Shown: positions 24,971-45,682 of the stretch, in pieces
Layout: every line of letters starts with the position of its first letter
Position numbering within the stretch: position 1 is the stretch's first letter
DNA from: Candidatus Bathyarchaeota archaeon
Lineage (GTDB): Archaea > Thermoproteota > Bathyarchaeia > Bathyarchaeales > Bathycorpusculaceae
Reading direction: 5' to 3'
DNA length: 64,000 nucleotides
NCBI GenBank assembly: GCA_963739305.1
Contig: CAVTZU010000018.1
Coordinates: 64,001 to 128,000, forward strand
The notes under the pieces: generated by a model
The model's database searches: none
What the model was told of the DNA's origin: nothing
The model's input: only the letters and a program-made list of their open reading frames with translations
Position numbers and translations under genes: made by a program

Positions 24971-25013
24971 CTGTTTATCACTCATAATCCATGTTGAGTA
25001 GGCCCTTTTTAGC

Positions 25014-26888
25014 TTAAGCCTGTCTCTTCCTCACTTTTTCCAACGCTTTATCAACGTCTCTTAACCCTAGCTTCACCAGCATCTCCGAAGACGGCACACC
25101 GTTCCTGTCCCAACCCACAGCTCTATAGTACCTGTGCTTGTACTTCTCCACCGCCTTCCTGTCCGTCGTCTTACCCTTCTCAGGCCCAGAAGGCAAGGGC
25201 TCATAAAACCTCGGCGGGTTAACATCATCAACCCTCGAATCCCACGTGACATCCGGACCGCCCAGCAGCAACAACGCTCTCTGAAGCTGCAGCGTCTTCA
25301 ACCCCCTCATATTGCACCACTCCTTCCGAGTCAACCTCACCCCGGTCACGGCAAAATAGAAATCAAAAATCGCGTTCCTCGAACCCGAAAAACTGTTGAA
25401 GCTACAGAAAACACCCGAATCATTCAATATCTCCATCAACTCGCTCCTGTCCAAGGGCAACCCGGTTAACGACGTGTGATCCCCACCCTGCACTCCGCAC
25501 GCGTAAGAAACTATCTCAGGAAAATCCTTCCCGCTCCGCGTCCCATGCGCACCGATGCTTATCCCCTTAGAATGCACGACGTACGGCAACAAATTCATCT
25601 TCTTCATCTCCCCAAGCTTCAGTGCCGCACGATACGTTCCCTCAGCCAACACGTCCCCTATACCTTGCCTGAAAGCGATCTTCTTCGCCAGGGCAGCAAA
25701 CGCATCAGTATTGCCCCACTCAAGCCTCAACCCATCAACGTCTTTCTCCTTCAATATTCCCCGTTGAAAAAGCTCAGCTGCAAACCCCATCACACTGCCC
25801 GTTTGAATACCACACAGCCCCAGGTCATCAACCAGAGACGTCAAATACACGTTGTCCTCAGGAACAAAAATGCCCAAGTTAGCCCCCAAATACGCCTGCA
25901 TCTCATAATCCGGGTTATCCGTTATCGCACCCTTGTACTTCCCACTGTTTACAACAGCAAGCTTCAAACAAGTGGTCGGACAACCAAAATCCCCCCAGTA
26001 CTGCTTCATCCAAAAGCGATTCTCAAACTTGTCAACTCCATAACCCCTCTCATCATGCCACTCCTCTTGCCAATTCCGCACCGGCTCCGAACTGCTATTA
26101 GCCCCAAAAGAATAACCGCCGCCACCTGTTCCCCAACGCCTCCACATCTCACTCTCATACACTCCCCTGCACACGCTCTTGATCAACCTCTTAACCTTCC
26201 CCATGTCCGCCGCTTCAGGCAAAGGACCCGTCCCCTTAACCACCACAGCCTTCAATCGTTTAGAACCCATAACCGCCCCATAACCACCGTAACCCGCAGC
26301 ATGCGACCACTTCGTCATAACGACAGCCGTACGCACCTTGTTCTCACCCGCAGGACCAACGTAAAGCATCGCCGGTTCCTTCCACTCTCCAAATCGCTTG
26401 TACCGCTCGTTCAGAAGCCCCCTGCACTCCTTCGTCAAGACGGCAACGGTCTGCTTCCCATCGTTCCCCCAAACATGACTCGCATCCCGAAGCTCAACGT
26501 CAGAATCCTTAACCATCAAATAAACAGGCTTTTCCGACTCACCGCTAACGATCACGCCGTCATAACCAGCACACCTCAACTCAACACCAAACTCGCCGGA
26601 AAGAGTGGAACCAACAACACCATTGCTCTGCGGAGACTTACCAGACACGCAGGTTCTACCGCCAGGGAAGTAACCCGTGAGCGGCCCAGTCAAGAATAGT
26701 AGAACATTCTCAGGCCCAAGAGGGTCCACTTTCTCCCATCTACTACCCAACCTGTCCCACAGGATCTTTGTGGCTAACCCTCTGCCCCCAACATAATCCC
26801 TCAAGACCTCGTCCTTAAACCTCGTCTCCTTAATCGCTCCATAAGCAAGGTCCACATCAAGAAACTTGCCAGCATAACCACGAATCAC
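25014..26888 (-). CDS. Tungsten aldehyde:ferredoxin oxidoreductase family (WOR5-like large subunit)
   Basis: GYAGKFLDVDL, KSPQ, GYGAVMGSKRLKA, GCPTTC, DDLGLCGI, YYRAVGWD; coupled to a polyferredoxin gene. Confidence 0.88.
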   Translation of the reverse strand: MIRGYAGKFLDVDLAYGAIKETRFKDEVLRDYVGGRGLATKILWDRLGSRWEKVDPLGPENVLLFLTGPLTGYFPGGRTCVSGKSPQSNGVVGSTLSGEFGVELRCAGYDGVIVSGESEKPVYLMVKDSDVELRDASHVWGNDGKQTVAVLTKECRGLLNERYKRFGEWKEPAMLYVGPAGENKVRTAVVMTKWSHAAGYGGYGAVMGSKRLKAVVVKGTGPLPEAADMGKVKRLIKSVCRGVYESEMWRRWGTGGGGYSFGANSSSEPVRNWQEEWHDERGYGVDKFENRFWMKQYWGDFGCPTTCLKLAVVNSGKYKGAITDNPDYEMQAYLGANLGIFVPEDNVYLTSLVDDLGLCGIQTGSVMGFAAELFQRGILKEKDVDGLRLEWGNTDAFAALAKKIAFRQGIGDVLAEGTYRAALKLGEMKKMNLLPYVVHSKGISIGAHGTRSGKDFPEIVSYACGVQGGDHTSLTGLPLDRSELMEILNDSGVFCSFNSFSGSRNAIFDFYFAVTGVRLTRKEWCNMRGLKTLQLQRALLLLGGPDVTWDSRVDDVNPPRFYEPLPSGPEKGKTTDRKAVEKYKHRYYRAVGWDRNGVPSSEMLVKLGLRDVDKALEKVRKRQA

Positions 26889-27415
26889 AGATACTCCTCC
26901 CCCTGATCGCCGTAGAACCTCGCAGCCAAATCCCTCGTCACCTCATCCGGCTTACGAGCATACAGCCGATACGACGTCTCATCCCGTCTTTCCACGACTC
27001 GTAACACGTTCCAACTGCCCTCTCGACAAACTTTTACACACTGCGGATCACCACCACAAAGATCACATATGACAATATGCTTCTCCTTCGGATGCATATG
27101 CGGAATCCTGCCAGGACAAGCATCAATACACTTGCCACAGGCAATACACTTTTCATTATTCACCAGCACGGCAGCCGTCCTCTTGCTAACAGACAAGGCC
27201 TCAACAGGACACGACTTCACACACGGATAATCTTCACACTGCGTACAAAAGTGAGGAAACTCAAGCCCCGGAACCAACATGAAAACCCTTATCATCGACG
27301 CGTCAGGCCACACACGGTTCTCATGATACAACGAACAAGCTATCTCGCACTTTCTGCAGCCGCTGCACCTGGCCAACTCTCTCGCTATCCAAATGGCCTC
27401 TCTCTTCGCCGTCAA
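26885..27415 (-). CDS. 4Fe-4S dicluster / polyferredoxin small subunit
   Basis: CSGCRKCEIAC, CTQCEDYPCVKSCP, CIACGKCIDACP, CDLCGGDPQCVKVC. Confidence 0.92.
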   Translation of the reverse strand: MTAKREAIWIARELARCSGCRKCEIACSLYHENRVWPDASMIRVFMLVPGLEFPHFCTQCEDYPCVKSCPVEALSVSKRTAAVLVNNEKCIACGKCIDACPGRIPHMHPKEKHIVICDLCGGDPQCVKVCREGSWNVLRVVERRDETSYRLYARKPDEVTRDLAARFYGDQGEEYL

Positions 27416-27539
27416 CGCTCAAACCCCCGAACGTTCAGCTTTTTCTAACATACCCTCTGATTTAAGTTTGATGCCCACGAATTCATTCTGAAGAGTTTCT
27501 AGCTGAAGAGACGTTACCTAAACGATTCGAGCTTATTAG

Positions 27540-28157
27540 TTGGGTTTGTTAACAAAAGGTTCGGGGCGCACCGGACTGGAGTACATTCTCGAAGTTCTAA
27601 CCATTCTCACAACGTCCTTCTTACTCAACATAATACCTTTTGCCGGACCATCAAACCTCTTCATAGCCTCAAGCGCAGCTGCCGTAACCAACGCTGAACC
27701 CTTCACAATCGGATTGGCTGTGGCGTTCGGATCAGCCTCAGCAAAGTTCATTCATTACATCGTAACATTCTTTGCGGGAAAATACATCGGTAAAGAACGA
27801 AGAAAACGATTGGACGCAGCAGCCCTAAAACTAAGAAAATGGGCTATGCCTGCTCTCTTCATAGTTGCTGCAACGCCCCTCCCAGATGAACCTGTGATCA
27901 TACCGCTTGGTCTTCTGAGATACAACCCTGGGAAACTCTTCTTGGCCTATTTCGCGGGCAAACTGCTCGTAGGAGTCGTCGGTGCCTACCTCGGAAAATT
28001 TGCACACGAAATGTTCAGGCCAATCATAAGCGATGAAGCCTTAATAATCATCTCCATCGCAGCCACAATCATAGTGACAATCATACTGCTAAAGATCGAC
28101 GTCACAAAACTGGCTGAAAGGATACTTAAAAGGAAAATAGAAACAATACCAGAATAG
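27540..28157 (+). CDS. VTT/DedA-like membrane protein
   Basis: LLNIIPFAGP, AATPLPDEPVIIPLGLLRY, FAGK; hydrophobic; start uncertain. Confidence 0.75.
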   Translation: MGLLTKGSGRTGLEYILEVLTILTTSFLLNIIPFAGPSNLFIASSAAAVTNAEPFTIGLAVAFGSASAKFIHYIVTFFAGKYIGKERRKRLDAAALKLRKWAMPALFIVAATPLPDEPVIIPLGLLRYNPGKLFLAYFAGKLLVGVVGAYLGKFAHEMFRPIISDEALIIISIAATIIVTIILLKIDVTKLAERILKRKIETIPE

Positions 28158-28166
28158 GTGGGATAA

Positions 28167-29456
28167 ATGAGAATAATAGCTGATCTGCACATACACGGAC
28201 CCTACAGTCGAGGTACCAGTGAACGAATGTGCCTCGAAGAAATCGCTCGATTCGCCAGAATCAAGGGCTTGTCTATCATTGGAACAGGAGACTTCACTCA
28301 CCCTAAATGGTATAATGAACTGAAAAACAAGCTTGTCCTGGACCCCGAAACAAGTCTCTACAGACTCAGCGTTGACCCTGCAACGCCCATCCGCTTCATG
28401 ATAACAACAGAAGTCAACACGGCCTTCTCCCATAACAACGAACTAAAAAAAGTCCACCACGTCATCCTCACGCCAAACCTTGAAACCGCAGATCAAATCA
28501 ACTACAGACTGTCCAAATACGGAAATCTACAGGCAGACGGACGGCCAACACTGAACGTTACGCCGCCTACGCTGGTTGAAGAAGTCATGGAAACGTCAAA
28601 GGACAACATGATATTTCCAGCTCACGCATGGACCCCCTGGTTCAGCATATTCGGTGCCTTCAGCGGGTTCGACGGCGTTGAAGATTGCTATGAAGACATG
28701 ACCAAACACATCCACGCTTTGGAGACTGGTCTCTCGTCAGATCCACCTATGAACTGGCGTGTCAGCAAACTCGATAAGTTCACTCTTGTCTCAAACAGCG
28801 ACAGTCACAGTTTCTGGCCTTGGCGCATCGGCAGAGAGGCTAACGTGTTCGAACTGAAAAAACCCACATACGGGGAAATCATTGAGTCCATTCGAATGAA
28901 GGACAGTAGCCGCTTCAAATTCACGATAGAAACAGATCCGGCTTATGGCAAGTACCATTGGACTGGACACAGAAACTGCAATGTCGCCCTTTCAGCCAAA
29001 GATGCAATGAAGTTCGCCAACATTTGTCCCGTCTGCCGCAGAAGGCTCACAAAAGGCGTCGAACAGCGAGTCGAAGAACTCGCTGATCGCCCCAACGACT
29101 ACAGACCCAACAACACGATTGGTTGCATGCATCTCCTGCCGCTATCGGAGATCATTGCAGCAGTTCAGGGAAGCGATTCTCCCTCAACTCAAAAAATCTG
29201 GAACTTATATAATTCGCTGATCCAAAAGTTTGGTGACGAATATAGGGTCCTGATTGACGCGCCAAAAGAAGCAATAAGCTCCATTGTAGACGAGTGTATC
29301 GCCGAGACAATCCTCAGGGTTCGACAACGAACAGCCGAGGTTATCCCGGGGTATGATGGCGTCTACGGAAAACTTGTCGTTCCATCGCAATTCGCTCAAC
29401 CCAAAACTGTTTCCCGAAGAGTACAACAGTTAAACCTTACCGACTTCGCTTCGTAG
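28167..29456 (+). CDS. Endonuclease Q family (PHP domain)
   Basis: ADLHIH, GTGDFTHP, PAHAWTPW, ETGLSSD, SNSDSHS, GKYHWTGHRNC, CPVC, PGYDGVYG. Confidence 0.9.
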   Translation: MRIIADLHIHGPYSRGTSERMCLEEIARFARIKGLSIIGTGDFTHPKWYNELKNKLVLDPETSLYRLSVDPATPIRFMITTEVNTAFSHNNELKKVHHVILTPNLETADQINYRLSKYGNLQADGRPTLNVTPPTLVEEVMETSKDNMIFPAHAWTPWFSIFGAFSGFDGVEDCYEDMTKHIHALETGLSSDPPMNWRVSKLDKFTLVSNSDSHSFWPWRIGREANVFELKKPTYGEIIESIRMKDSSRFKFTIETDPAYGKYHWTGHRNCNVALSAKDAMKFANICPVCRRRLTKGVEQRVEELADRPNDYRPNNTIGCMHLLPLSEIIAAVQGSDSPSTQKIWNLYNSLIQKFGDEYRVLIDAPKEAISSIVDECIAETILRVRQRTAEVIPGYDGVYGKLVVPSQFAQPKTVSRRVQQLNLTDFAS

Positions 29457-29547
29457 CCTCTTCATCATGCCTTTTCTGTATACCTGCTATGCAAGTGTAC
29501 AAGAACGCTTATTAAGTCGTGATAAACCAGATAGTCTCGGTAATCCG

Positions 29548-29874
29548 ATGCAGCAATCAAAAGCCACAGACGACAAAGTCACGAAAATCATCGATCACGT
29601 TCTAACCCAGATATTTGGAAAAGAAGCTTCGGCTCTCATCTACAAACACCTCGAGCGCAAATACTCGGTCAAGCGTTCCGAAGTCGGAGACAAACTCGAA
29701 CTCTTCGCAGAAGGTCTTGAGGATTTTCTGAAGTCCGGTGCCTACGTCATTGAGAGGAAAATACTAGAAGACATCTGGTCAAACTATGGTGCCGTTCAGA
29801 GACTTCAAATGGAAAAACCGAGACGTGAAGGAAGTTTTGCAAGTGAAGTTAAAGTTCTTTTGAGGGAAGCATAA
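29548..29874 (+). CDS. Hypothetical protein (small helical, DUF3227-like)
   Basis: IDHVLTQIFG...IYKHLE...FAEGLEDFL.SGAYVIERKIL pattern; ATG at 29548. Confidence 0.6.
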   Translation: MQQSKATDDKVTKIIDHVLTQIFGKEASALIYKHLERKYSVKRSEVGDKLELFAEGLEDFLKSGAYVIERKILEDIWSNYGAVQRLQMEKPRREGSFASEVKVLLREA

Positions 29875-30029
29875 CTAAACCTCTCGTTTTACGAGACAAG
29901 TTACATCAACATTATGTCTTCCTAGTTTTCATTTGCACAATGAACTTCCCGACAGACTACTCATTGGATAGTGATTGCAGAAAACCTTAAACTTATCGGA
30001 AAACAAATAACTCGGGCCTTTATTACAGC

Positions 30030-30989
30030 ATGGAGAAGGCGCAAAGCTTGGGTGCGAAAGGAATCAAGGAAGCATTGCTGAAGTACAATACACCTCGGAG
30101 AATAGTCCAACTGCTATCATTCATCTTATTCAGCGCAATTATCTTCAATCTCGGCGTGTTACCACTTCTGTTTCCTGTCCTTTGGACGTGGGGTCTCAGG
30201 ACGAACACAGTTGGAGATGCCTTCACGGCAATTCAATTCATGTTCAGCGGATGGAACTCTGCCTTCGTTTTGTTTCCTTGGATAGCACTCGCTTCATTTC
30301 TAATAGTCGGCGTACTTGTCGGCAAGTCACTCTGTGGGTGGGTGTGCCCTTTCGGTTTTGTTCAAGATTTAGTCGGCTATGTCCGTCGGAAGCAGACTGA
30401 CCTGTCAGCTCGTACACACGACACTTTAGTCTATGGGAAATATGTTGTTTTAGCCATCGCCCTGTTTATCAGTGTGACTTACTCGGCTGCAAGGTCAATC
30501 GGTGAAGACGCCGGATACGGACAGGCAATAGGCATTTTCGCTCAGGCTCCATTTACGGCTTTGAGCCCATCAGAAGTTCTATTCTCAACTCTGCCAAAAA
30601 TGGCTCAAGGCTTTCGTTTTTCAGGGTGGGAGAACTTGGGATCAGACCTGTTGTATGGAGTTTCGATTTTGCCACCGCTCTTCTGGGTTCAGTTCGCGAT
30701 AATGGTAATCGTGCTGGTTTTTGCAGTTTATGTTCCTAGAAGTTGGTGCAGGTATCTATGCCCACACGGAGCTTTTATGGCGATAATGAACAGGTTCAGC
30801 TTCGTGGGTTTGCGTCGAGAGCCATTCAAGTGTGAGAAGGGCGCATGCCGTTCGTGTGTTCAGGTGTGCCCGACTCGCGTTCCAATTCTCGATCTTCCAT
30901 GGGAAAAATTCAGTCACCCGGAATGCATCTACTGCATGAAATGCGCGGACGCATGCCCTCACAGCGCAATCAAGCCAACGTATCCTTGA
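30030..30989 (+). CDS. Membrane 4Fe-4S binding protein (NapH/MauN-like)
   Basis: CGWVCPFG, WCRYLCPHG, CRSCVQVCP, CIYCMKCADACP plus TM helices. Confidence 0.88.
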   Translation: MEKAQSLGAKGIKEALLKYNTPRRIVQLLSFILFSAIIFNLGVLPLLFPVLWTWGLRTNTVGDAFTAIQFMFSGWNSAFVLFPWIALASFLIVGVLVGKSLCGWVCPFGFVQDLVGYVRRKQTDLSARTHDTLVYGKYVVLAIALFISVTYSAARSIGEDAGYGQAIGIFAQAPFTALSPSEVLFSTLPKMAQGFRFSGWENLGSDLLYGVSILPPLFWVQFAIMVIVLVFAVYVPRSWCRYLCPHGAFMAIMNRFSFVGLRREPFKCEKGACRSCVQVCPTRVPILDLPWEKFSHPECIYCMKCADACPHSAIKPTYP

Positions 30990-31005
30990 CTTTTTGGCAC
31001 TTTTT

Positions 31006-32851: not shown

Positions 32852-32857
32852 TTTTAC

Positions 32858-33109: not shown

Positions 33110-33182
33110 TTTTTCATCCTCTATTCTGCTGCAACGAATATTCTTGAGTCGTTTTCTTATAAAACCATGTGTGCAAGTTTGT

Positions 33183-36105: not shown

Positions 36106-37146
<1,041 letters not shown>

Positions 37147-37208
37147 TTATATTGAGAATGAGGCTGTTCTAATTAGTTTTCCGCATGCTACGAAAGGGTG
37201 GAGTATGG

Positions 37209-38570
37209 TTATCGCAGTTTTAGCAGAACCATTTCTGCTGCGAGAACCATTGGTTCCCACGTTTCGCAGACGGGGGGTGCATAAGCCGTATCTGCTTTTG
37301 ACAGGTCTTTTGCAGTCATTCCTCTTTGTATTGCTAGGGATATTGCGTTGATGCGTTGGGTGACTTCTTCTCCACCGATTATTTGGGCTCCAATTATCCG
37401 CTGTGTTTCTTTTTCGACGACGAGTTTGACTTTTATCGGAAGGGCTCCTGGGTAGTAGTCCGCTTTAGTCTTCGAGGTGATTGTGCCCGTGACGACTTCG
37501 ATTCTGTTCTTCCTTGCTGCAGCCTCGGTTAGTCCTGTCCATCCACAGTCTGTGTCAAAAAGCCTTGAGACTGCGGATCCTAGGGCGCCCGTGAAGAGTG
37601 AGTATCCTCCTGCGGCGTTTATGCCTGCGATTTTTCCGGTTCTCACTGCCACTGTGCCGAGTTGTGGGAGAGATGGTCTTTGGGTGACTATGTTTGTTAC
37701 CTCTGCGCAGTCGCCTACTGCGTAGGTGTCTCTGATGTTTGTCTCCATGCGTGCGTTTGTTCTTATTGCTTTGGTTTCGCCTAGTAAGATGCCGGCGTTG
37801 ACTGCGAGTTCTGTGTTTGCTCTTACACCGAAGGCGCTTAGGAATAGGTCAGCTTCGATTTTCTCTCCGCTTGCCATGATGCCTGTTACCTTGGTGGTTC
37901 CGAGGAATTCTTCGACGCATCTGTTGGTGAGTACAGTTATTCCCTTTTCCTCAAGTAAGTCTTGTACCATTTTCGCCATTTCAACGTCAAGTGGCAGGGG
38001 CAGTATCTGCGGCAGCATTTCGACGACCGTTACCTTTAGTCCTCTTTCGTGAAACGCTATGGCTGTTTCAAGTCCGATTAGTCCAGCTCCCATGACCACG
38101 GCGGTTTTCGCGCCTTTTCTTATCGCTTGATCTATCTTCTGTCCGTCTTCTAGGGTTCTGACTGAATAGACATCTTGTTTTTCTTTGCCTTTGATCGGTG
38201 GCGTGAAGGAGCTTGCTCCCGTGGCAATAATGAGGCTGTCATAGGGTAATGTTTCTGTCTTGTCGTCTTTTTCTGTTATTTGGAGTGTTTTCTTTGCGGA
38301 GTCAATTGCTGTGACCTTTGTTTCAGTTTTGAGGTTGATCTTCATCATTTGAAAGTATGGTGGCGCGAAGACTATGAGGTCGTTGAACCTTGGTATTTGG
38401 CCGCCTAGAACGAAGGGAAGGCCGCAGCGTGAGTATCCGGGGTGTTTCTCTTGGGTGATTATGGTTATCTCCGCTTGGCGGTCTGTCTTTCTTGCTGCTG
38501 CAGCGGCGTCTACGCCGGCTGCGTGGGCGCCGATGATGACTATCCGCCTTTGCGTTGACGTGGTTTTCAC
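37209..38570 (-). CDS. CoA-disulfide reductase / NADH oxidase family flavoprotein
   Basis: Single redox Cys YSRCGLP, IIATG, GAGLIGLE, YAVGDC, AYAPP. Confidence 0.88.
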   Translation of the reverse strand: MKTTSTQRRIVIIGAHAAGVDAAAAARKTDRQAEITIITQEKHPGYSRCGLPFVLGGQIPRFNDLIVFAPPYFQMMKINLKTETKVTAIDSAKKTLQITEKDDKTETLPYDSLIIATGASSFTPPIKGKEKQDVYSVRTLEDGQKIDQAIRKGAKTAVVMGAGLIGLETAIAFHERGLKVTVVEMLPQILPLPLDVEMAKMVQDLLEEKGITVLTNRCVEEFLGTTKVTGIMASGEKIEADLFLSAFGVRANTELAVNAGILLGETKAIRTNARMETNIRDTYAVGDCAEVTNIVTQRPSLPQLGTVAVRTGKIAGINAAGGYSLFTGALGSAVSRLFDTDCGWTGLTEAAARKNRIEVVTGTITSKTKADYYPGALPIKVKLVVEKETQRIIGAQIIGGEEVTQRINAISLAIQRGMTAKDLSKADTAYAPPVCETWEPMVLAAEMVLLKLR

Positions 38571-38977
38571 TTCTTGAGGGTTTTGTGATATTCAACTGCT
38601 TTATTGAAATCCATCGTGTTTGTTAGTTCTTGGTTGAGGTTTGTTGGTCTTATTATTAGGAGCCAGCCTTTGATGTAGGGGTCTTCGTTTAGTAGCTCGG
38701 GTTTTGATTGTACTTCTGTGTTTACTTCTTCAATTGTTCCGGTTATAGGTGCGACTAGATCTGATACTGCTTTGACTGATTCGACCGTGCCGTAGGGTTC
38801 GTTCTGTTTTATTTCGGATCCTGGGTTTGGTAGTTCTGCGTACACTATTTCTCTGAGTTGTTTCTGGGCGTAGTCGGTGATGCCGACGCGGACTTTGTCG
38901 CCTTCTATTTTGAGCCACTCAAATTCCTTCGTGTAATATAATCCGTCGGGTACTTCGTTTCCTTCTACTTTCACCAT
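38567..38977 (-). CDS. gcvH: Glycine cleavage H-like lipoyl carrier protein
   Basis: VGITDYAQ, VESVKAVSD (lipoyl Lys), NEDPY..GW. Confidence 0.93.
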   Translation of the reverse strand: MVKVEGNEVPDGLYYTKEFEWLKIEGDKVRVGITDYAQKQLREIVYAELPNPGSEIKQNEPYGTVESVKAVSDLVAPITGTIEEVNTEVQSKPELLNEDPYIKGWLLIIRPTNLNQELTNTMDFNKAVEYHKTLKK

Positions 38978-39064
38978 GTTTTGTACACCTCTTGAATGTG
39001 CTGTTATTGTTTCGCATCTAACCCTTTAAGATTAACTGTCATTTTGTCAGGGGGTTTCATCTTA

Positions 39065-39113
39065 CCTACCCCCTCCTAGGTTTCAATGTATCATGGATAT
39101 TTGGATCCAAATA
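39065..39113 (-). repeat. Degenerate G-tract core plus 16-bp palindrome, related to the 116-bp element
   Basis: Minus strand GGAGGGGGTAGG at 39065-39076; TATTTGGATCCAAATA at 39098-39113. Confidence 0.5.
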
Positions 39114-39214
39114 GGGAAGGCTGTCTGAGTTTTTAGATGACAAAGCACGGGAGAGTTACCGTGCAGAGTGAATCACGAGAAAGAATTGTGGGCATGTTAG
39201 GATGAAAGATGGTG

Positions 39215-40291
39215 TTATCGTTCTCTTTTCCCTTGTATGAAATCCTCGACTGCTTGTTTTGCTACAGGATCTGGGACTTGGATCGGTGGGTGCTTGAAGG
39301 CGTATGATGATATGCTGAGTAAGGCGCCTCCAATTTTACGGTCCAAAGCTATCTTGACTGCTCGTATTAGGTCGATGACGACGCCGGCGCTGTTCGGTGA
39401 GTCTTCAACTTCGAGTTTTGCTGAGATCGTTAGTGGTCGATCGCCGAATTTTCTTCCTTTAAGCCATAGGTAGCAGATCTTCTTGTTTCCCAAGAATGGG
39501 ACATAGTCTGAGGGGCCGATTCGGGTGGGAAGGTCATAAGGAACAAGGCTTGTTACGGCCTCGGTCTTGCTGATTCGCTTTGTCTTCAGTCGTTCCTCAA
39601 CTGTCATGTTCAGGAAGTCGGTGTCTCCTCCAAGGTTCAGTTGGTATGTTTCCTCTATGATGACTCCTCGGTCCACTGCTAGTTTTGCGATTGCTCTGTG
39701 TAGGATTGTTGCTCCGAGTTGACTCTTGATGTCGTCTCCTGCGATCGGGAGTCCTTTTTCTTCAAATTTCTTGCTCCATGTCGCGTTTGATGCTATGAAT
39801 TCGGGCATGCAGTTGATCATGGCGCAGCCGGCGTCTAGGGCCGCTTGAGCGTAGAATCTTGTGGCGTTTCTGCTTCCGACGGGTAGGTAGTTTATCAATA
39901 TGTCTGCTCTTGTTTCTTTCAAGACTTTAGGAACGTGGGATGGGTCGACCTCTTTCTGGTAGACGTTGAAGACCTGTTTCATGTGGTCTGCTACGCCATC
40001 AAGGATGGGCCCTCCTGTGACTTCAACGCCTAAGTTCGGAACGTCCGCAAACTTTTCACAACAGTTAGGTGCTGTGAAGATGGCCTTCGACAGGTCTTTT
40101 CCTATTTTGTCTTTGTTCACTTCGAAGGCTGCGACGAATTTGACGTCTCTTACGTGATACGGTCCGAACTTCACATGCATGAGACCTGGCACGTTCGTGT
40201 CTTCCTTTGCGTCCTTGTAATATTGGACGCCTTGGACCAACGCTGATGCAGAATTGCCTACTCCTACGAGCGCTACTCGGATCTCTGACAA
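39215..40291 (-). CDS. ino1: Inositol-3-phosphate synthase
   Basis: GVGNSASALVQG, NYLPVGS, GDDIKSQLGAT, GGDTDFLNM, EDSPNSAG. Confidence 0.94.
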   Translation of the reverse strand: MSEIRVALVGVGNSASALVQGVQYYKDAKEDTNVPGLMHVKFGPYHVRDVKFVAAFEVNKDKIGKDLSKAIFTAPNCCEKFADVPNLGVEVTGGPILDGVADHMKQVFNVYQKEVDPSHVPKVLKETRADILINYLPVGSRNATRFYAQAALDAGCAMINCMPEFIASNATWSKKFEEKGLPIAGDDIKSQLGATILHRAIAKLAVDRGVIIEETYQLNLGGDTDFLNMTVEERLKTKRISKTEAVTSLVPYDLPTRIGPSDYVPFLGNKKICYLWLKGRKFGDRPLTISAKLEVEDSPNSAGVVIDLIRAVKIALDRKIGGALLSISSYAFKHPPIQVPDPVAKQAVEDFIQGKRER

Positions 40292-40425
40292 GTTGATGGT
40301 TGCTCCTTGAGTATAGTTCAGCTTAAGGCTTTAGTGAGCGTCTGCTGTATAACTTTTTCTGGAAAGATGGCAAGATTAAAAGGGACCTTGGGCTAGTTAG
40401 ACGATATGCGAAAGCGGTGTGTTTC

Positions 40426-40794
40426 ATGAGTTCTGAAGATGTTGTCGTTACGTATGAACCGTTCAAAGAAGTCGTTATCATGGAGAAGGATTATTTCACT
40501 TCGGCTGACGAGATGGCGAGGTTTGCTTCGATTATCGCTGGAGGAAAAGCTGCTGGTCTATACTGGGCTGAAGGTGTCGTGTTTCTTTACTTTCCACTTC
40601 CTGCGTCTACAGAAACAACAGCCAAACTTCTCGTTGAAAAAGGAAGGGTTTATTGGACTTTCGTCGGCTATTCCCTTATGCCGAAGTATCAACCTGTGAT
40701 TGAAACTCGAGAAAGAATGATTGTCCCAGTCGTTGACATGACCGCCAATGCGCTTATCAAGAAAGTCGCACTCTGGTTGAAAGAACAGAAATAA
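40426..40794 (+). CDS. Conserved hypothetical protein
   Basis: Protein-like ORF filling the gap (LYWAEGVVF, IVPVVD). Confidence 0.7.
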   Translation: MSSEDVVVTYEPFKEVVIMEKDYFTSADEMARFASIIAGGKAAGLYWAEGVVFLYFPLPASTETTAKLLVEKGRVYWTFVGYSLMPKYQPVIETRERMIVPVVDMTANALIKKVALWLKEQK

Positions 40795-40859
40795 CTTGTC
40801 TTCTTTTCCGTTTCGATTTTTCTCCCGTCATCAAATATGGAATAGCTGGTTCTGATTAT

Positions 40860-41246
40860 TTGAGGACCCTTTGCTTGAAGGGGCAAGTCTTCTCTGGAAA
40901 AGGTGAAGGAACTACTTTCGTCAACCTCCCGTGGGCGAAGAGGCAGATGGAAGAAAAGCTGGGGTTCACCCTCTTTCCTGGCACGCTGAACATAGAGTTG
41001 ACGCCGGAAGATACTAGGATGAGAGAGACGTTGAAAGGCGAAGGCGGGTTTGCCATCCTACCCGCGTCTGGATACTGCCCCGCGAGACTTTTCAGAGCTA
41101 AACTTAGCGGCGTGGAGTGCGGCGTGGTTTTTCCTCAAATCAACGGTTATCCTGTAGATGTTGTAGAACTTGTTTCATCCGTAAATCTGAGGGAGAAATT
41201 GTGCCTTTTCGATGGTAGCCAGGTCGAGGTTGAGGTCACTTTTTGA
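40860..41246 (+). CDS. CTP-dependent riboflavin kinase (DUF120)
   Basis: GQVFSGKGEG, FPGTLNI, ELVSSVNLREKL. Confidence 0.88.
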   Translation: MRTLCLKGQVFSGKGEGTTFVNLPWAKRQMEEKLGFTLFPGTLNIELTPEDTRMRETLKGEGGFAILPASGYCPARLFRAKLSGVECGVVFPQINGYPVDVVELVSSVNLREKLCLFDGSQVEVEVTF

Positions 41247-42741
41247 CTTGTCTTTTTCGGTGTCCGTTGAAGCTTTTGATGTAATCATGGACAAGATTCT
41301 TTTTCTGTAGGTATGACCCGTATCTGGCGAGGGCGCTCATTGCTCTTGCGGCGTCTTCTGGTGATGAGTATGCTGGAACGCCTAGTCTGTCGAACCTTAG
41401 CCGTGTGCTGATTGCCATTTCTGTTTCGCCTATGTCGCAGGCTACCATAGGTTTCTCGTACTTGCCTGCAACTGCTGCAACCTTGTCGATGTAGTCCTCT
41501 TTGATTGCTGGAGTGTGATGGAGACCCAGCATTATTACCCCGTTTATCTCGGGTTCTTCAAATACGATTTCAGTAGCAAGTTCGAACATTTCAGACGTGC
41601 CTGAACCCGTTATGTCCACAGGGTTCATGTTCGTGGCAAACTTTGGCAGTCTGCCTTCAGCTTTAAGTTCCTCGAACTTGGCGATTGTCTTTTCAGAGAA
41701 TCGTTTGACGTTCAATCCTTTCGACTCACACTCGTCAACGGCCATTATGCCGGGTCCCCCAGCATCCGTGACTATTCCGACGTTTTTACCCAAGGTGGGA
41801 ATCTGCATTGACAATGCCTTTCCTGCGTGGAAGAATTCGTCCATGTCTTGTGCCCTTAGAATCCCTGTTTGTTCGAAAACAGCATCATATATTCGGTCGG
41901 ATCCGGCCAATGCACCTGTGTGCGAAGCAGCAGCTCGAGCTCCCGCTTCTGTCCTTCCGGACTTCAAGGCTACAACGGGCTTCTTCTCGGTGATCTTATC
42001 GGCAGCTTCCATGAATCTTCTTCCAGATCTTATGTCTTCAACGTAAAGCAGTATTACACTCGTTTCGGTATCATAGTAGAGGTAGCGGAGCATTTCTGCC
42101 TCGTCTACGTCGATTTTGTTGCCGAAACTGACGAATTTGCTGACCCCAGTGTGTAAACCTGCAAGATAGTCAAGTGCTGCCACGCCGAAGGCTCCACTCT
42201 GCGTAACTATTGCTATGTTTCCAGGCATCGGGCGAGGTGTAGCAACAACTTCGTCTCCTGTCGTGAGAACTTTTGTTTCAGGAAGGAACAGCATGTCGAC
42301 GCCTGTTCTGGAATCATAGACACCCAGGCAGTTTGGCCCTAGGACCCGTATTCCCGCTTCTCGGGCAATTGTCGCTACTTGATTTTCGAGATCGTGGTTT
42401 CCGACCTCGCCGAAACCTGCGCTGATTATGACGACGTCCTTGACTTTTTTCACGACAGCATCCATCATTATCTGTGGGACGATGTCTGCAGGGACGACGA
42501 TGACTGCTAGCTCGAGTTCTCCTGGAATCTTCGTGATGGTTGGGTAACACTTGATGCCCAGGATTGAATCTTCATTCGGGTTGACCGCGAATATTTCACC
42601 CTTGAAAACCTGCCGCCGCTTGTTTTCGACGAAGTTTTTGAAGATGACCTGTCCTGCTTTTTCGACTTTTTTTGTTGCTCCGACGATCGCCACTGAACGT
42701 GGATTAAAGAAGGCGTTCAGCGCTTGCACTTTTTCTTCCAT
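41236..42741 (-). CDS. acdA: Acyl-CoA synthetase (ADP-forming) alpha subunit
   Basis: PRSVAIVGA, GPNCLG, TQSGA, SHTGALAG (phospho-His), NPVD. Confidence 0.9.
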   Translation of the reverse strand: MEEKVQALNAFFNPRSVAIVGATKKVEKAGQVIFKNFVENKRRQVFKGEIFAVNPNEDSILGIKCYPTITKIPGELELAVIVVPADIVPQIMMDAVVKKVKDVVIISAGFGEVGNHDLENQVATIAREAGIRVLGPNCLGVYDSRTGVDMLFLPETKVLTTGDEVVATPRPMPGNIAIVTQSGAFGVAALDYLAGLHTGVSKFVSFGNKIDVDEAEMLRYLYYDTETSVILLYVEDIRSGRRFMEAADKITEKKPVVALKSGRTEAGARAAASHTGALAGSDRIYDAVFEQTGILRAQDMDEFFHAGKALSMQIPTLGKNVGIVTDAGGPGIMAVDECESKGLNVKRFSEKTIAKFEELKAEGRLPKFATNMNPVDITGSGTSEMFELATEIVFEEPEINGVIMLGLHHTPAIKEDYIDKVAAVAGKYEKPMVACDIGETEMAISTRLRFDRLGVPAYSSPEDAARAMSALARYGSYLQKKNLVHDYIKSFNGHRKRQVKK

Positions 42742-43592
42742 CGCGGTTTTCCTCGTTGCTTCTTACAAGAACTATGGGTTTATGTTTTGCTCCATCTAGC
42801 ATTTCCCAGCTTACCTCGGTGAAGCCGACTTTGAACTTTTCCGCCATCTCCCAGACTGTTCGCCCTGTGCCAAAACCTCTGGAACGATTGGCAATCTCAG
42901 CGATCCTCAAGGATTGCTCAGCGTTAAGACTGCATCCTGCGACGGCTAGGGGAGTGGCTCTTTTTCTAAGCCTGAGAACTCGTCCGATGACGTATGTAAC
43001 GAAGCCTCCGCCTGATTGAATTCCTCTGGTAGTTGTTGGGCGGGGTGTGAAGTGGAAGTTTCTGAGCGAGTAGGTCTTGTCGGTGTCGACGATCATCACT
43101 GAGACTCTTTTTCCTAAGCGCGAAAGGATTTCTTTTCTGATCGTTTCAGCGATTTCTCCGGGATTTTTCAAGGGTAGACTGACGTATGAGTAGGGCAGGT
43201 TGCTTCCATCGATGGCGCCTTCGGATCCGAACATGAGCGTTTGGAGCAGCCCAGCTTGTTGCAGGGCGACTTGTTTGTGGCGGCTTCCTTCTATCGGATG
43301 GGTATTCTCGTATCTGTTTGAGTAGTCTGGCTTTGAGGTGGCAGGCTGGGCCTAGCACGTAGCCCCAGACTGTCCGCATCCAGATCGTGGCGACGAGTTT
43401 TGCTGTGAGTGTCGGCGCGGTTTGGTTTTCGTCTACTATGTTGTTTGTCGCGGTTGAGATGGCTTTTTCTGACAGGACGATTATGTCGTTGTTGGCTACT
43501 CTTCCATTTATGGCCTGGATGATTTGTTTGATGTAGTCTTGTCCTGGTCTCCAGTACTTTGTTTTGATTGGGAGAACTTTGTATTTGGTCAT
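42704..43592 (-). CDS. Coenzyme F420-0:glutamate ligase (CofE)-like protein, 1-nt frameshift near 43296
   Basis: TKYWRPG, VLSEKAISTA, GAIDGSNLP, MIVDTDKTY; removing one base gives YPSIEGSRHKQVAL. Confidence 0.75.
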
Positions 43593-43642
43593 TGGTTATC
43601 GCGTTGTTGTTTGAAAATCTGCTTGTACTACGCGCGTGTGCG

Positions 43643-44341
43643 TCAGAGTTTTTGGAATTTTTCTTTGATTTCTGTGATGTTGCAGTCTTCGGGTTTCATT
43701 TTTCCCTCTGTGCAGTAGCCGAGTTCGACGCATGTTGGTCCGCAGTTTTCGAAAAGTGTGGGTGTGGCTTTTTTTGCTTGTTTCAGCATTTCTTCGGCGG
43801 TTTGTCTGATTTCCCATTGTGCGCGGCGGCAGCATCTTAGGTTGAAGAAGTGGCGGAGTTCTCTTGCGTTCATTGTTACGATTATGTTGGTTTTTGCGGC
43901 GTTTGGAAGGATGAATCTTGAGTCTTCTTTTGGTATTCCTAGTTTGAGGAGTTTTTGGTAGGTTTCGGATATTTTCTCGAGTGTCTCGGTGAAGACTTTG
44001 TTTGCTTCGTTGTTGGCCGTGATGCTTGGTGGTGTCACGTATTTTTCGAGCGTGTCGTAGGTGACGTAGCGTTGGCTTTGTTGGGTGTATGAGGCGATGC
44101 GGTGTCTGACGAGTTGGTGTGTCATGGCTCTTGAGACGTCTTCGATGCTGAACGTGAACGATGCGTGTTCTATGATTGAGGTGTGTCCGTAGCCAGTTAC
44201 TTTTTTGATTTTTTGTTTGGCTGTTTCGGCGTCTATTTTTTCTAGGATTTCTGTGGGTTTTCCGGCTTTTATGGTGGTTTGGGCTGCTGTGCCGCATAGT
44301 AGTTCTGCGTCTGCGGTGTAGCGGAGCAGTTTGATTTTCAT
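43643..44341 (-). CDS. thyX: FAD-dependent thymidylate synthase
   Basis: GHTSIIEH, HQLVRHRIASYTQQSQRY, MNARELRHF, AQWEIR. Confidence 0.96.
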   Translation of the reverse strand: MKIKLLRYTADAELLCGTAAQTTIKAGKPTEILEKIDAETAKQKIKKVTGYGHTSIIEHASFTFSIEDVSRAMTHQLVRHRIASYTQQSQRYVTYDTLEKYVTPPSITANNEANKVFTETLEKISETYQKLLKLGIPKEDSRFILPNAAKTNIIVTMNARELRHFFNLRCCRRAQWEIRQTAEEMLKQAKKATPTLFENCGPTCVELGYCTEGKMKPEDCNITEIKEKFQKL

Positions 44342-44446
44342 TTTCTAGTCTCCTATCTTTCAATGTGTGGGGGCTCGGCTTTTGTTGAAATAACAATTGC
44401 TTCTGAGAGGATATAAAACAGTTTCAATCGGGCTTTTCGGGTTGGT

Positions 44447-45511
44447 TTAGACGTGCGTGTACATGCGGTCGGCTGTGTATTTTCCTGTCTGCATTTCTTG
44501 TTCTATTTCGCGCAGGAGCATTATTCGTCTGAAGGTTGGTGGGTGGGTTGAGAACCAGCTGTTTATGGTTTTCCAGCTGGATTTTGCTTCTTTTTCCATT
44601 GCGAGTTCGAGTTCTCGTTCGTCGAGGACTCCGTCGTGGTTAAGGTCGTATTCGTCCTTCTTTTCCATTATTTCGGCTATTTCTTGTTTTGCTAGTGAGG
44701 GGTCGCCTATGTAGAAGGCTCTGACGCCTGTTGGTGCTTTAGGGGAGAGTGAGAGTCCGTAGGTTATTTTTGCCAAGGCGCTTTCGAGGCTGTTTGGGTC
44801 GTTTGTTACGTAGGCTGAGTAGGCGTCGGCGTAATGTTCTCGGAGTCGGCTGAGTCTCATTACGGCTAGTAGTGAGATGATGTAGACGACGTACGAGAGT
44901 ATGCCGATGATGAAGAGGGCTGCGCCTATGTCGCCTTCGTTTCTTTGTCTTGATGATCTTCCTGAGAGCCATGCTGTTTGCCATGTTCCTCTTGCGACGA
45001 GGTAGGCGATGAGTGGCAGCGCGGAGATCACGGTCATGACTGCGTAGTCTTTGTGTTTTAGGTGTCCGAGTTCGTGGCCGATGACGCCTTTGACTTCGTT
45101 TTCGTTGAGGTTTCTGAGTAGTCCTTCGTGGACTGCGAGTGTTGCTGAGTGGATTGTTCTGCCGAAGACGAAGGCGTTCGGGGTGTTGTCGGGGACGATT
45201 GCGAGTCTTGGCGGTGGTATGTTGCTTTTGTCGGCGAGTTCTTTCACGGTTGATTCGAGCCATGGGTTTTGTCCTGGTTTGAGGTATTGAAGGTGGGTGG
45301 ACATTCTTACAACGGCGGGTCCGATGAGGTATTGGAAGAGGATGAAGATTGTTGGAAGGGCGACGATGAGGAGTATCCAGTAGTCTAGGCTGATGGGTGC
45401 GACGAATTGTTGGACGATGAGGAGGATTATGAAGAGGAAAGCGACGAAGATTAGGGATACGAGAAGGATGCTGGCGCTCATTGCGAGCTTTAGTTGTCCG
45501 AGTCTTGGCAA
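44447..45511 (-). CDS. htpX: Zinc metalloprotease HtpX (M48)
   Basis: PNAFVFG, HELGH, SRLREHYAD, STHPP. Confidence 0.92.
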   Translation of the reverse strand: MPRLGQLKLAMSASILLVSLIFVAFLFIILLIVQQFVAPISLDYWILLIVALPTIFILFQYLIGPAVVRMSTHLQYLKPGQNPWLESTVKELADKSNIPPPRLAIVPDNTPNAFVFGRTIHSATLAVHEGLLRNLNENEVKGVIGHELGHLKHKDYAVMTVISALPLIAYLVARGTWQTAWLSGRSSRQRNEGDIGAALFIIGILSYVVYIISLLAVMRLSRLREHYADAYSAYVTNDPNSLESALAKITYGLSLSPKAPTGVRAFYIGDPSLAKQEIAEIMEKKDEYDLNHDGVLDERELELAMEKEAKSSWKTINSWFSTHPPTFRRIMLLREIEQEMQTGKYTADRMYTHV

Positions 45512-45682
45512 GGTTTTTCCTCTGTTCCTATGAGTTGAAATCGTGCTGGAATTAAACTTTTCTTACCAACATCTGGGTCCTCTGGGTCGAGGGTTGTGAT
45601 GCTTACTGGTTCGTTGCGTATGCCGCGGATATGTGTGGACCAAGGTGAAGGACTGGTCAACATTCCTTTTGAGTTGAAAGCT

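What the first reader, a model, noticed from the sequence alone, without database searches (positions are those of the whole stretch)
25000..45680. Polar strand-composition tracts anchored on the G-tract elements, independent of gene direction
Seen (hand-picked spot counts, plus strand, all in minus-strand genes): 26521-26580 is 41/60 A+C, whereas 45181-45240 is 47/60 G+T and 38821-38880 is 43/60 G+T; control proS 18601-18660 is 31/60 G+T. In each case the strand bearing the G-tract turns A+C-rich for several kb on its 3' side and the bias appears to fade with distance. Established: prolonged single-strandedness drives C>T and A>G, making the exposed strand G+T-rich. Inference: the element marks a site where the complementary strand is repeatedly single-stranded on one side (polar fork pause/terminus, or nick/break with 5' resection). 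This could be an undescribed chromosome replication or maintenance signal.
Basis: partly seen in the sequence, partly recalled or inferred. Interest (0 to 1): 0.78.

Follow-up and report, generated by a model that had tools for sequence, protein, structure and literature searches.

The report
Repeat element anchoring one-sided strand-bias tracts
In this peat archaeon a 155-base repeated element marks the sharp start of several-kilobase stretches where one DNA strand has lost most G and T at silent sites whichever way the genes point, which looks like the footprint of an undescribed process that repeatedly leaves one strand single-stranded.

Summary
The G-tract is the core of a ~155-nt intergenic element with 27 copies in this 2.3-Mb Bathyarchaeia genome. 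Neutral-site keto skew on the G-tract strand averages -0.355 in the 1.5 kb on its 3' side against -0.048 upstream. None of 20,000 random draws reached this value. It fades to zero by about 6 kb. At fourfold-degenerate sites the bias is the same for co-directional genes (-0.43) and convergent genes (-0.52). It overrides codon usage in EF-2, DNA ligase, PheRS and AOR.

Outgroup-polarised substitutions are C>T and A>G, plus G>T, on the strand opposite the G-tract. That is the signature of damage to single-stranded DNA. A sister species with its own sequence "dialect" of the element shows the same profile. Genus members without the element have unskewed orthologues.

Best reading (0.45): a polar break or arrested fork at the element, followed by 5'-3' resection, repeatedly exposes the complementary strand. 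This is inferred. Nothing here shows single-stranded DNA, nicks, or which proteins act. A promoter or transcription origin is the main rival. My literature searches found no description of this.

The parts
24854..25007 (+). Element copy 1. From 5' to 3': terminus TCAACATGG, an A+C-rich module, an A7 run, the G-tract GGTAGGGGGGTAGGGTG, a T-run/A-run segment, and terminus CCATGTTGA.
   Evidence: nhmmer hit C18:88854-89007, E 3.8e-35. Inverted repeat with copy 2. Sequence read.
45644..45798 (-). Element copy 2, inverted relative to copy 1. The two form a convergent pair 20.7 kb apart.
   Evidence: nhmmer hit C18:109798-109644, E 5.8e-33..
25008..30000 (+). Tract 1. The + strand (the G-tract strand of copy 1) is A+C-rich and the bias fades with distance. 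It covers AOR (-), a ferredoxin (-), a VTT-domain-like protein (+), a 429-aa ORF (+) and a 135-aa ORF (+).
   Evidence: Position-3 keto skew on the + strand: -0.55, -0.54, -0.39, -0.26, -0.16, then 0.01. Fourfold sites: -0.66, -0.57, -0.29, -0.20. Pfam names.
41236..45643 (-). Tract 2. The - strand (the G-tract strand of copy 2) is A+C-rich and the bias fades with distance. It covers htpX-like M48 peptidase, thyX, an F420-ligase-like ORF and an ADP-forming CoA ligase, all on the - strand.
   Evidence: Position-3 keto skew on the + strand: +0.79, +0.84, +0.40, +0.29. Fourfold sites: +0.82, +0.80. Pfam names.
37209..40291 (-). A separate operon-type skewed block (inositol-1-P synthase, GcvH, pyridine nucleotide-disulphide oxidoreductase). 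The coding strand is A+C-rich. It is not contiguous with tract 2 and no element lies at its start.
   Evidence: Position-3 keto skew +0.48, +0.64, +0.53, with +0.13 and +0.09 in the intervening plus-strand genes. Upstream region read. Pfam names.
220..1575 (+). An A+C-rich tract (glyoxalase, EamA transporter) with no element in this genome. The sister species G004 has a full element about 190 nt upstream of the orthologous glyoxalase gene.
   Evidence: K3 of -0.77 and -0.55. Synteny and alignment. Pfam names.

Best explanation
The ~155-nt element is a polar chromosomal site. On the 3' side of its G-tract strand, that strand is recurrently removed or left unpaired for up to about 6 kb. The complementary (C-tract) strand therefore persists as single-stranded DNA.

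The most likely route is a strand-specific break or an arrested replication fork at the element, followed by 5'-to-3' resection of the G-tract strand and repair by recombination or fill-in. While exposed, the C-tract strand suffers damage specific to single-stranded DNA: cytosine deamination (C>T), adenine deamination (A>G) and guanine oxidation (G>T). Over evolutionary time this makes the C-tract strand G+T-rich and the G-tract strand A+C-rich. The effect is graded because exposure becomes less frequent or shorter with distance.

Shown here: the anchoring, polarity, gradient, gene-direction independence, substitution spectrum, recurrence in a second species, and within-genome co-evolution of the element.

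Inferred: the single-stranded state, the break or stall, the resection, and which proteins act.
For: 1. Anchoring and polarity. 27 copies have mean neutral-site skew of -0.355 downstream and -0.048 upstream. 0 of 20,000 random draws reached this. Onset is sharp and the decline to zero at 6-7 kb is near-linear.

2. It is not codon choice or gene direction. Fourfold-site skew on the motif strand, 0-1 kb from the element, is -0.43 for 14 co-directional genes and -0.52 for 16 convergent genes. At 2-3 kb both are -0.33. Intergenic DNA also shifts: -0.128 downstream against -0.011 upstream.

3. It overrides highly conserved genes lying antisense to the motif: EF-2 K3 +0.58, DNA ligase +0.71, PheRS alpha and beta +0.62 and +0.51, PFL +0.58.

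4. It is derived and linked to the element. EF-2 K3 is +0.58, +0.40 and +0.47 in the three genus members with the element about 1 kb downstream. It is -0.07 to -0.29 in four members without it.

5. The spectrum, polarised with four outgroups. On the EF-2 coding strand (the C-tract strand): C>T 92/178, A>G 70/126, G>T 20 and A>T 26, against T>C 7/42, G>A 6/158 and C>A 2. On htpX (the G-tract strand) the complement appears: G>A 19/41 and T>C 16/18, against A>G 4 and C>T 1. This matches the chemistry described for the displaced H-strand of mtDNA (PMC3269012, passages read).

6. Replication in another species. 20 distinct copies in G004, which carry a different consensus, give all-site skew of -0.18, -0.21 and -0.17 over 0-1.5 kb and about zero beyond 3 kb.

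7. Concerted evolution. 4 of 4 syntenic G000/G004 copies are 59-70% identical to each other but 78-89% identical to paralogues in their own genome. This fits recombinogenic sites, or sites that co-evolve with a trans-acting factor.

8. Two NurA homologues are encoded.
Against: - There is no direct evidence of single-stranded DNA, nicks, breaks or fork arrest. No RNA or raw-read data were available.
- 9 of 27 copies have little or no tract. I did not identify what distinguishes them. They tend to belong to subfamilies with longer shared flanks, but I defined that grouping after seeing the skew.
- Only 13 of 28 genes with |K3| >= 0.6 lie in element zones. Most other extreme genes are single-gene or operon islands whose coding strand is A+C-rich and which start near their own promoters. 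This suggests that a transcription-unit-linked process of the same sign also exists, and it could equally underlie the element tracts.
- Intergenic sites are less skewed (-0.13) than fourfold sites (-0.3 to -0.5).
- The model does not by itself explain why close pairs are convergent (6 convergent, 0 divergent, 1 tandem).
- Flanking large-scale skew does not switch consistently across pairs, and the two Orc1/Cdc6 genes are not next to elements. A role as a replication terminus has no support.
Confidence: 0.45

Rival explanations
1. The element carries or creates a strong promoter. Long transcripts run in the G-tract-strand direction. A transcription-linked mutation or repair bias, which in this lineage makes the non-template strand A+C-rich, writes the tract. 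Fading reflects transcript termination.
For: Most non-element extreme genes (30 of 37 with |K3| >= 0.5) have A+C-rich coding strands. Several show onset about 100 nt upstream of the start codon, so a transcription-unit-linked bias of this sign exists. The A+C-rich strand lacks T-runs, so transcripts could run long.
Against: - The sign is opposite to the classical deamination of the non-template strand (recalled from E. coli and mammalian work, not tested here).
- The G>T excess is on the strand that would be the template.
- EF-2 would need antisense transcription that outweighs the effect of its own transcription, and EF-2 is presumably very highly expressed (general knowledge, not measured). 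Its orthologues without the element have K3 of -0.07 to -0.29.
- I saw no conserved BRE/TATA-like box in the skewed copies (alignment). htpX keeps its own conserved promoter downstream of the element.
- Elements occur equally in convergent (9), divergent (8) and tandem (9) gene contexts.
Confidence: 0.2
2. The element is a Chi-like, species-specific signal. It does not start breaks. It switches a helicase-nuclease that arrives from its 5' side, so that the enzyme stops degrading both strands and produces a 3' tail from the C-tract strand.
For: The footprint is the same as in the best explanation: one-sided, sharp onset, kb-scale decay, single-stranded-DNA spectrum. The species 'dialects' resemble the species specificity of bacterial Chi sites (recalled).
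Against: 27 copies in 2.3 Mb, roughly one per 86 kb, and a length of 155 nt are unlike Chi, which is 5-8 nt and highly abundant (recalled). In a search for archaeal resection papers, the ten listed held no occurrence of the term 'Chi-like' (listing only).
Confidence: 0.1
3. The strand composition itself is selected. Possible reasons include unstructured A+C-rich RNA, exclusion of some DNA-binding protein, or chromatin or domain organisation next to the element.
For: The element core is strongly conserved within a genome, so it is functional. Intergenic sites are less skewed than silent coding sites.
Against: - A smooth decline with distance across genes of either orientation looks mutational.
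- Codon positions 1 and 2 shift in the same direction as position 3 (r of 0.30-0.38).
- The change spectrum is dominated by two transitions plus G>T.
- The tract persists where the element is absent (window 220-1575).
Confidence: 0.07
4. The finding is an artefact or reflects foreign DNA: bin chimerism, assembly error, or horizontally acquired segments with unusual codon usage.
For: The genome is a 36-contig bin with 7.8% estimated contamination. Three extreme genes are integrases.
Against: - The tracts cover housekeeping genes that have 86-93% identical orthologues in genus members.
- The same pattern occurs in another species' assembly.
- All 30 bins of 24000-30000 are covered by contigs in 4 of 4 public runs. 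All four runs come from one study, which may be the source sample.
Confidence: 0.02

Closest known systems
Strand asymmetry of vertebrate mitochondrial DNA (strand-displacement replication: H-strand G+T-rich, L-strand A+C-rich)
   Same: The compositional signature at silent sites is the same, and it affects codon usage of genes on either strand. The inferred chemistry is the same: C and A deamination on a strand left single-stranded, graded by exposure (PMC3269012, passages read). Both have a G-tract near the start.
   Different: The polarity is reversed. In mtDNA the strand carrying the CSBII-type G-run is the one that becomes G+T-rich downstream (recalled). Here the G-tract strand becomes A+C-rich. 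The tracts here are about 5 kb long, occur at 27 sites in a cellular chromosome, and are not replicon-wide.
Chi sites with RecBCD/AddAB
   Same: Both are polar and species-specific sequences. Both give one-sided production of a 3' single-stranded tail over several kb, with an effect that decays with distance.
   Different: Chi is 5-8 nt, very abundant and bacterial (recalled). This element is 155 nt, has 27 copies and is archaeal. I know of no compositional tract reported for Chi.
Polar replication fork barriers (Ter/Tus, RTP, Fob1-RFB, RTS1)
   Same: Action depends on orientation. Close copies converge like a fork trap (6 convergent, 0 divergent, 1 tandem). A cognate protein would explain the species dialects.
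   Different: There is no consistent large-scale skew switch across pairs. There are at least six 'traps' of 8-21 kb but only two Orc1/Cdc6 genes. No barrier protein has been identified.
Strand-coordinated mutation clusters in resected single-stranded DNA at double-strand breaks (yeast and cancer 'kataegis')
   Same: Mutations are confined to one strand, next to a break, over kb of resected DNA (PMC6786661 and PMC3521656; only the search listing and abstract starts were seen).
   Different: Those are single somatic events, often enzyme-driven (APOBEC). Here the signal is an evolutionary equilibrium at fixed, inherited sites.
MITE/REP-type small intergenic repeats
   Same: Short, non-coding, intergenic and multicopy, with inverted termini TCAACATG...CATGTTGA. 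Positions are only partly shared between species (4 of about 20).
   Different: No partner with the same termini enclosing a recognised transposase was seen (the one enclosed ORF was not tested). Target duplications were not examined. Small repeats are not known to carry a polar mutational tract.

Membership tests
Replication-associated (leading/lagging) skew | Chromosome-scale skew that switches only at origins and termini | tested here: not met
   The tracts are about 5 kb long, occur at 27 oriented sites and have skew up to 0.8 at silent sites. There is no consistent switch in flanking skew across pairs.
Transcription-associated strand asymmetry | Skew follows the direction of the transcription unit | tested here: not met
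   Fourfold-site skew on the motif strand is -0.43 for co-directional genes and -0.52 for convergent genes at 0-1 kb.
Transcription-associated strand asymmetry | A promoter or transcript start at the tract origin | not testable with these tools
   No RNA holder was listed. I saw no conserved TATA-like box by eye in the alignment.
Chi-like recombination hotspot | A short (5-8 nt), highly over-represented oriented motif | tested here: not met
   The element is 155 nt with 27 copies in 2.3 Mb.
Chi-like recombination hotspot | A polar, one-sided effect that decays over kb | tested here: met
Polar fork barrier / fork trap (Ter-like) | Convergent arrangement of oppositely oriented sites | tested here: met
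   Close pairs (<= 21 kb): 6 convergent, 0 divergent, 1 tandem. 27 of 20,000 label shuffles reached 6 convergent pairs.
Polar fork barrier / fork trap (Ter-like) | Placement at replication termini, with a cognate terminator protein | tested here: inconclusive
   There is no consistent skew switch. Orc1/Cdc6 genes lie on C11 and C17, not beside elements. The genome is in 36 contigs. The protein is unknown.
mtDNA-type strand-displacement origin | The G-run-bearing (nascent or displaced) strand becomes G+T-rich downstream | tested here: not met
   The G-tract strand becomes A+C-rich downstream. The mtDNA polarity is recalled, not tested.
MITE | Terminal inverted repeats, multicopy, intergenic | tested here: met
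   Termini TCAACATG / CATGTTGA. 27 copies, all between ORFs or overlapping only ORF ends.
MITE | An autonomous partner sharing the termini; target-site duplication | tested here: inconclusive
   6 terminus pairs lie 400-5000 nt apart, 3 of them using an element's own terminus. One pair encloses a 552-aa ORF that I did not test. Target duplications were not examined.
Structured RNA gene | Conserved secondary structure or a match to a known family | tested here: not met
   No Rfam match at the elements. RNAalifold gave -1.83 and -0.71 kcal/mol with almost no pairs. Fold z-scores were 0.1 to 1.2.

The most novel reading that the evidence does not exclude
A clade of Bathyarchaeia carries an undescribed chromosome-maintenance signal. 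It is a species-specific 'dialect' element that a co-evolving factor reads in one orientation to program one-sided single-stranded-DNA formation, acting as a polar recombination or fork-restart hotspot. Convergent pairs delimit 8-21 kb cassettes. The signal is active enough to rewrite silent sites, and partly the amino-acid content, of essential genes such as EF-2.
Probability: 0.35. Interest if true: 0.9.

Novelty: categorically new. Interest (0 to 1): 0.82.

Why it matters
Local strand composition in archaea is usually put down to gene orientation. One preprint abstract seen argues exactly that. Here a defined sequence element predicts, with polarity, kb-scale tracts where silent sites reach 90-97% A+C on one strand regardless of gene direction.

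If the single-stranded-DNA reading is right, three things follow:
- These elements are the first sequence-defined polar recombination or replication sites in an archaeon.
- They offer a natural record of how long and how far single-stranded DNA persists in vivo in an uncultured lineage.
- They make a question testable: what initiates or directs strand-specific DNA processing in archaea.

There are practical consequences too. Such tracts distort codon-usage, expression and horizontal-transfer predictors. They also distort phylogenies built from the affected genes, for example EF-2.

Tried and rejected
- **Structured RNA.** No Rfam family at gathering threshold in the window, or at E <= 1 around a long copy, except an sR30 hit at 13.7 bits (cut-off 38). 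No consensus fold. No fold stability in 6 sequences. No tRNA in the window.
- **The 5' terminus as the real anchor.** 124 copies of TCAACATGCAAAA (<= 2 mismatches) outside elements have mean downstream skew of -0.038, against -0.034 for the reversed-motif control. Rejected.
- **Retro-copying through cDNA.** RVT_1 was found in 0 of 11 genus genomes.
- **Autonomous transposon partner.** None evident (not exhaustive).
- **Replication terminus.** Flank skews are inconsistent.
- **Viral or plasmid origin.** The exact 20-mer occurs in 0 viral contigs. The 51 loose-pattern viral hits are about what I estimate for chance and were not followed up. 14 metagenome contigs hold the 20-mer, and 6 of the 10 with downstream sequence have skew <= -0.2. 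They may come from the same organism.
- **Expression data.** No RNA holder was listed.
- **Laid contigs.** The runs hold mixed related strains. The differences could not be polarised, and no joint was informative.
- **Exponential fit.** It was poorly determined (L of 4.9 kb with an offset of +0.2). The decline is closer to linear.
- **Other Bathyarchaeia.** Among 36 of the 80 EF-2 loci examined, a few genera show moderately G/T-ending EF-2 (K3 0.22-0.54). Where I looked (L080, L088, L090) I saw no recognisable element.


Full report
**Check of the observation**

The four hand counts are exact. The two G-tracts (24950-24955 on the + strand, 45698-45703 on the - strand) sit in a 116-nt inverted repeat, 24855-24970 / 45683-45798, 91% complementary.

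A 2-kb composition profile shows two mirror-image anomalies next to these repeats. At 25-27 kb, GC skew is -0.41 and AT skew +0.09. At 43-45 kb, GC skew is +0.24 and AT skew -0.43.

The bias lies at third codon positions:
- thyX: A .47, C .45, G .07, T .01
- htpX: A .39, C .50, G .08, T .02
- AOR: A .08, C .15, G .45, T .32

All three genes are on the minus strand. The plus strand is therefore A+C-rich at AOR and G+T-rich at htpX and thyX. Fourfold-degenerate sites give the same picture. Gene identities are from Pfam.

To the right of the left element, position-3 skew on the plus strand runs -0.55 and -0.54 (two minus-strand genes), then -0.39, -0.26, -0.16 and 0.01 (four plus-strand genes).

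**What the motif is**

The window lies in a 2.32-Mb, 36-contig genome. Record titles of its relatives place it in Candidatus Bathyarchaeia.

A strict regular expression found 6 copies of the motif. Allowing up to 4 mismatches to a 20-nt core found 27, against 4 for the reversed core. A profile built from these recovers the same 27 (E <= 4.7e-20) plus 10 weak partial hits.

The unit is about 155 nt. From 5' to 3' it consists of a terminus TCAACATGC, about 85 nt of A+C-rich sequence, GAAAAAAAGGCCGGGGGGTAGGGTG, a segment flanked by a T-run and an A-run, and a terminus CCATGTTGA that is the inverse of the 5' terminus.

Homology between copies never extends beyond about -210 to +170, and no ORF is shared.

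Copies lie between convergent genes (9), divergent genes (8) or tandem genes (9). One copy is at a contig end.

There is no Rfam match, no consensus RNA fold and no unusual fold stability.

**Genome-wide test**

I called genes as non-overlapping longest ORFs (2290). This is crude, but the all-site analyses do not depend on it. Neutral sites here mean third positions plus intergenic DNA.

Neutral-site keto skew on the G-tract strand averages -0.355 in the 1.5 kb 3' of the 27 copies and -0.048 at -2.2 to -0.7 kb. 18 of 27 copies are below -0.2, against 8.7% of 2706 random oriented intergenic sites. None of 20,000 random draws of 27 came near the observed mean (minimum -0.128).

For the 18 clearly skewed copies, a group chosen by the skew itself, the profile peaks at about -0.64 near 0.4 kb. 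It then declines almost linearly to zero at 6-7 kb. Neutral-site composition in the first 1.5 kb for these copies is A .343, C .404, G .133, T .120. The genome-wide value is .25 for each base.

The table gives fourfold-site keto skew on the motif strand for all 27 copies.

| Distance from element | Co-directional genes | Convergent genes |
|---|---|---|
| 0-1 kb | -0.43 (14 genes) | -0.52 (16 genes) |
| 1-2 kb | -0.37 | -0.27 |
| 2-3 kb | -0.33 | -0.33 |
| 3-4.5 kb | -0.14 | +0.08 |
| Upstream | -0.04 | -0.11 |

Positions 1 and 2 and intergenic DNA move in the same direction as position 3. Intergenic DNA moves less: -0.128 downstream against -0.011 upstream.

**Not expression or codon optimisation**

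The most A/C-ending genes are an ERCC4 nuclease, three integrases, glycosyltransferases, an aminotransferase, htpX and thyX. These are not classic highly expressed genes.

The most G/T-ending genes are real and conserved: EF-2, ATP-dependent DNA ligase, PheRS alpha and beta, a PFL-like glycyl-radical enzyme, a homocitrate-synthase-like enzyme and AOR. All of these lie 3' of an element on the opposite strand.

**Comparative evidence**

EF-2 K3 by genome:
- G000: +0.58
- G004: +0.40
- G003: +0.47
- G001: -0.17
- G008: -0.10
- G002: -0.07
- G005: -0.29

The three positive genomes have the element about 1 kb downstream, beyond lysO. G005 has the same lysO neighbour but only a G-run and a perfect hairpin, without the CCATGTTGA terminus, and shows no skew.

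A gapped pattern finds 23 copies in G000, 30 in G004, 3 in G003 and none in the other 8 genus genomes. The exact G000 29-mer with up to 3 mismatches is found in none of 40 relatives.

G004's copies carry their own consensus. 20 distinct G004 copies give the same oriented profile: all-site skew of -0.18, -0.21 and -0.17 over 0-1.5 kb and about zero beyond 3 kb.

Only 4 of about 20 G004 copies have a G000 copy at the syntenic place. For all 4, the orthologous copies are 59-70% identical to each other but 78-89% identical to paralogues in their own genome. The copies therefore evolve in concert, or co-evolve with a trans-acting factor.

Upstream of the orthologue of window gene 220-630, G004 has an element and G000 has none, yet G000 keeps the tract. 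Tracts can therefore outlive the element, or arise without it.

**Substitution spectrum**

I used four unskewed genus members as outgroups and counted synonymous third positions.

EF-2 in G000, read on its coding strand (the strand opposite the G-tract), shows:
- C>T 92 of 178 ancestral C
- A>G 70 of 126
- A>T 26, G>T 20, C>G 16
- against T>C 7 of 42, G>A 6 of 158, C>A 2

G004 and G003 give the same ranking.

htpX, whose coding strand is the G-tract strand, shows the complement: G>A 19 of 41 and T>C 16 of 18, against A>G 4 and C>T 1. htpX also shows A>C 18 and G>C 10, which I cannot assign.

C>T and A>G are the two hydrolytic deaminations. They are far faster in single-stranded DNA and are held to explain the G+T-rich H-strand of mtDNA (PMC3269012, passages read). 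The G>T asymmetry fits oxidised guanine on the same strand (my inference).

**Mechanism**

Several models leave the C-tract strand single-stranded on the 3' side of the G-tract:
- a nick or one-ended break at the element with 5'-3' resection of the G-tract strand
- a polar fork barrier with resection of the nascent lagging strand behind the arrested fork
- uncoupling of leading-strand synthesis at the element
- a Chi-like switch of a nuclease arriving from upstream

I cannot separate these with the data in hand, so I commit to the first two as one family (0.45).

Models that displace the G-tract strand predict the opposite sign. These include rolling-circle nicking, R-loops from a promoter in the element, and mtDNA-type priming.

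A cDNA route lacks a reverse transcriptase: RVT_1 was found in 0 of 11 genus genomes.

Close pairs of elements are convergent: 6 convergent, 0 divergent, 1 tandem, with 27 of 20,000 label shuffles reaching 6 convergent pairs. The window's own 20.7-kb pair is one of them. This is the geometry of a fork trap. However, flanking skews do not switch consistently, and only two Orc1/Cdc6 genes are present, neither beside an element. Two NurA homologues are present.

**What argues for caution**

Nine of 27 copies have little or no tract.

Element zones hold 5.3% of genes but only 13 of the 28 genes with |K3| >= 0.6 and 20 of the 59 with |K3| >= 0.5.

The remaining extreme genes are mostly single-gene or operon islands with A+C-rich coding strands that start near their own promoters. 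A transcription-unit-linked bias of the same sign therefore exists in this genome. This keeps the promoter reading alive (0.2).

Against the promoter reading:
- the sign problem
- the G>T asymmetry
- the EF-2 argument
- the lack of a conserved promoter box in skewed copies (by eye)
- the context-independence of the elements

**Independent material**

Four public runs labelled peat metagenome, all from one study that may be the source sample, cover all 30 bins of 24000-30000 with short contigs. They contain several related strains and also the G004-type dialect of the element. Depth is 4-10 times higher at the element bin. Nothing there bears on mechanism.

**Literature**

I ran five full-text searches on these topics:
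- strand asymmetry, archaea and deamination
- Bathyarchaeota, skew and origins
- Chi-like sequences and archaeal resection
- single-stranded-DNA hypermutability
- Bathyarchaeia repeat elements

None listed a paper describing element-anchored polar skew tracts. I saw only listings and abstract starts, except for the passages of PMC3269012 read. Supplementary files were not consulted.

**Verdict**

The feature is real, strong and reproducible. The signature chemistry is known, but this kind of genomic site is undescribed. The mechanism is inferred.

Noticed in passing
window 63022-63098 (+): Fluoride riboswitch (crcB motif), 49.8 bits against a gathering score of 34.
   Followed up: no
G000 C25:17964-18764, C26:10877-11962, C15:5005-5919: Three phage-integrase-family genes are single-gene islands of extreme A/C-ending codons (K3 of -0.87, -0.65, -0.60) with unskewed neighbours and no element nearby. 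The cause is unknown.
   Followed up: partly
window 28167-29456 (+): A 429-aa ORF inside tract 1 has no Pfam hit at 1e-5. From memory its N-terminus and zinc-finger-like CPVC motif resemble PHP-domain endonuclease Q, which cuts at deaminated bases. This is untested.
   Followed up: no
window 24855-24930 (-) and 45723-45798 (+): The part of the 116-nt repeat outside the common element could encode a 26-31-aa peptide starting MALNGG. The two copies differ by several non-synonymous changes, so it is probably not coding.
   Followed up: no
window 58878-60120: Four copies of a 31-nt motif spaced about 400 nt apart (68-100% identity), probably a repeated protein domain.
   Followed up: no
L174 (G003) upstream of htpX; G000 C20 ~145500-145700; G000 C1 ~12000: tRNA-like sequences lie immediately 5' of A+C-rich tracts or of an element.
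   Followed up: no
G004 contigs C2, C30, C45, C49, C99, C104, C112: Many element copies lie within about 1 kb of contig ends, so the repeat breaks short-read assemblies. C2, C30 and C45 each carry a convergent pair.
   Followed up: partly
L069 (G005), about 1 kb downstream of EF-2: An element-free genus member has a G-run followed by a perfect 10-bp hairpin flanked by T5 and A6 at the orthologous spot. This may be the ancestral intergenic terminator from which the element core derives.
   Followed up: no
L081, L080, L088, L090 (other Bathyarchaeia EF-2 loci): EF-2 is moderately G/T-ending (K3 0.22-0.54), with skew continuing about 1 kb downstream. Where I looked (L080, L088, L090) there was no recognisable element. 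A related phenomenon with other anchors may be wider in the class.
   Followed up: partly
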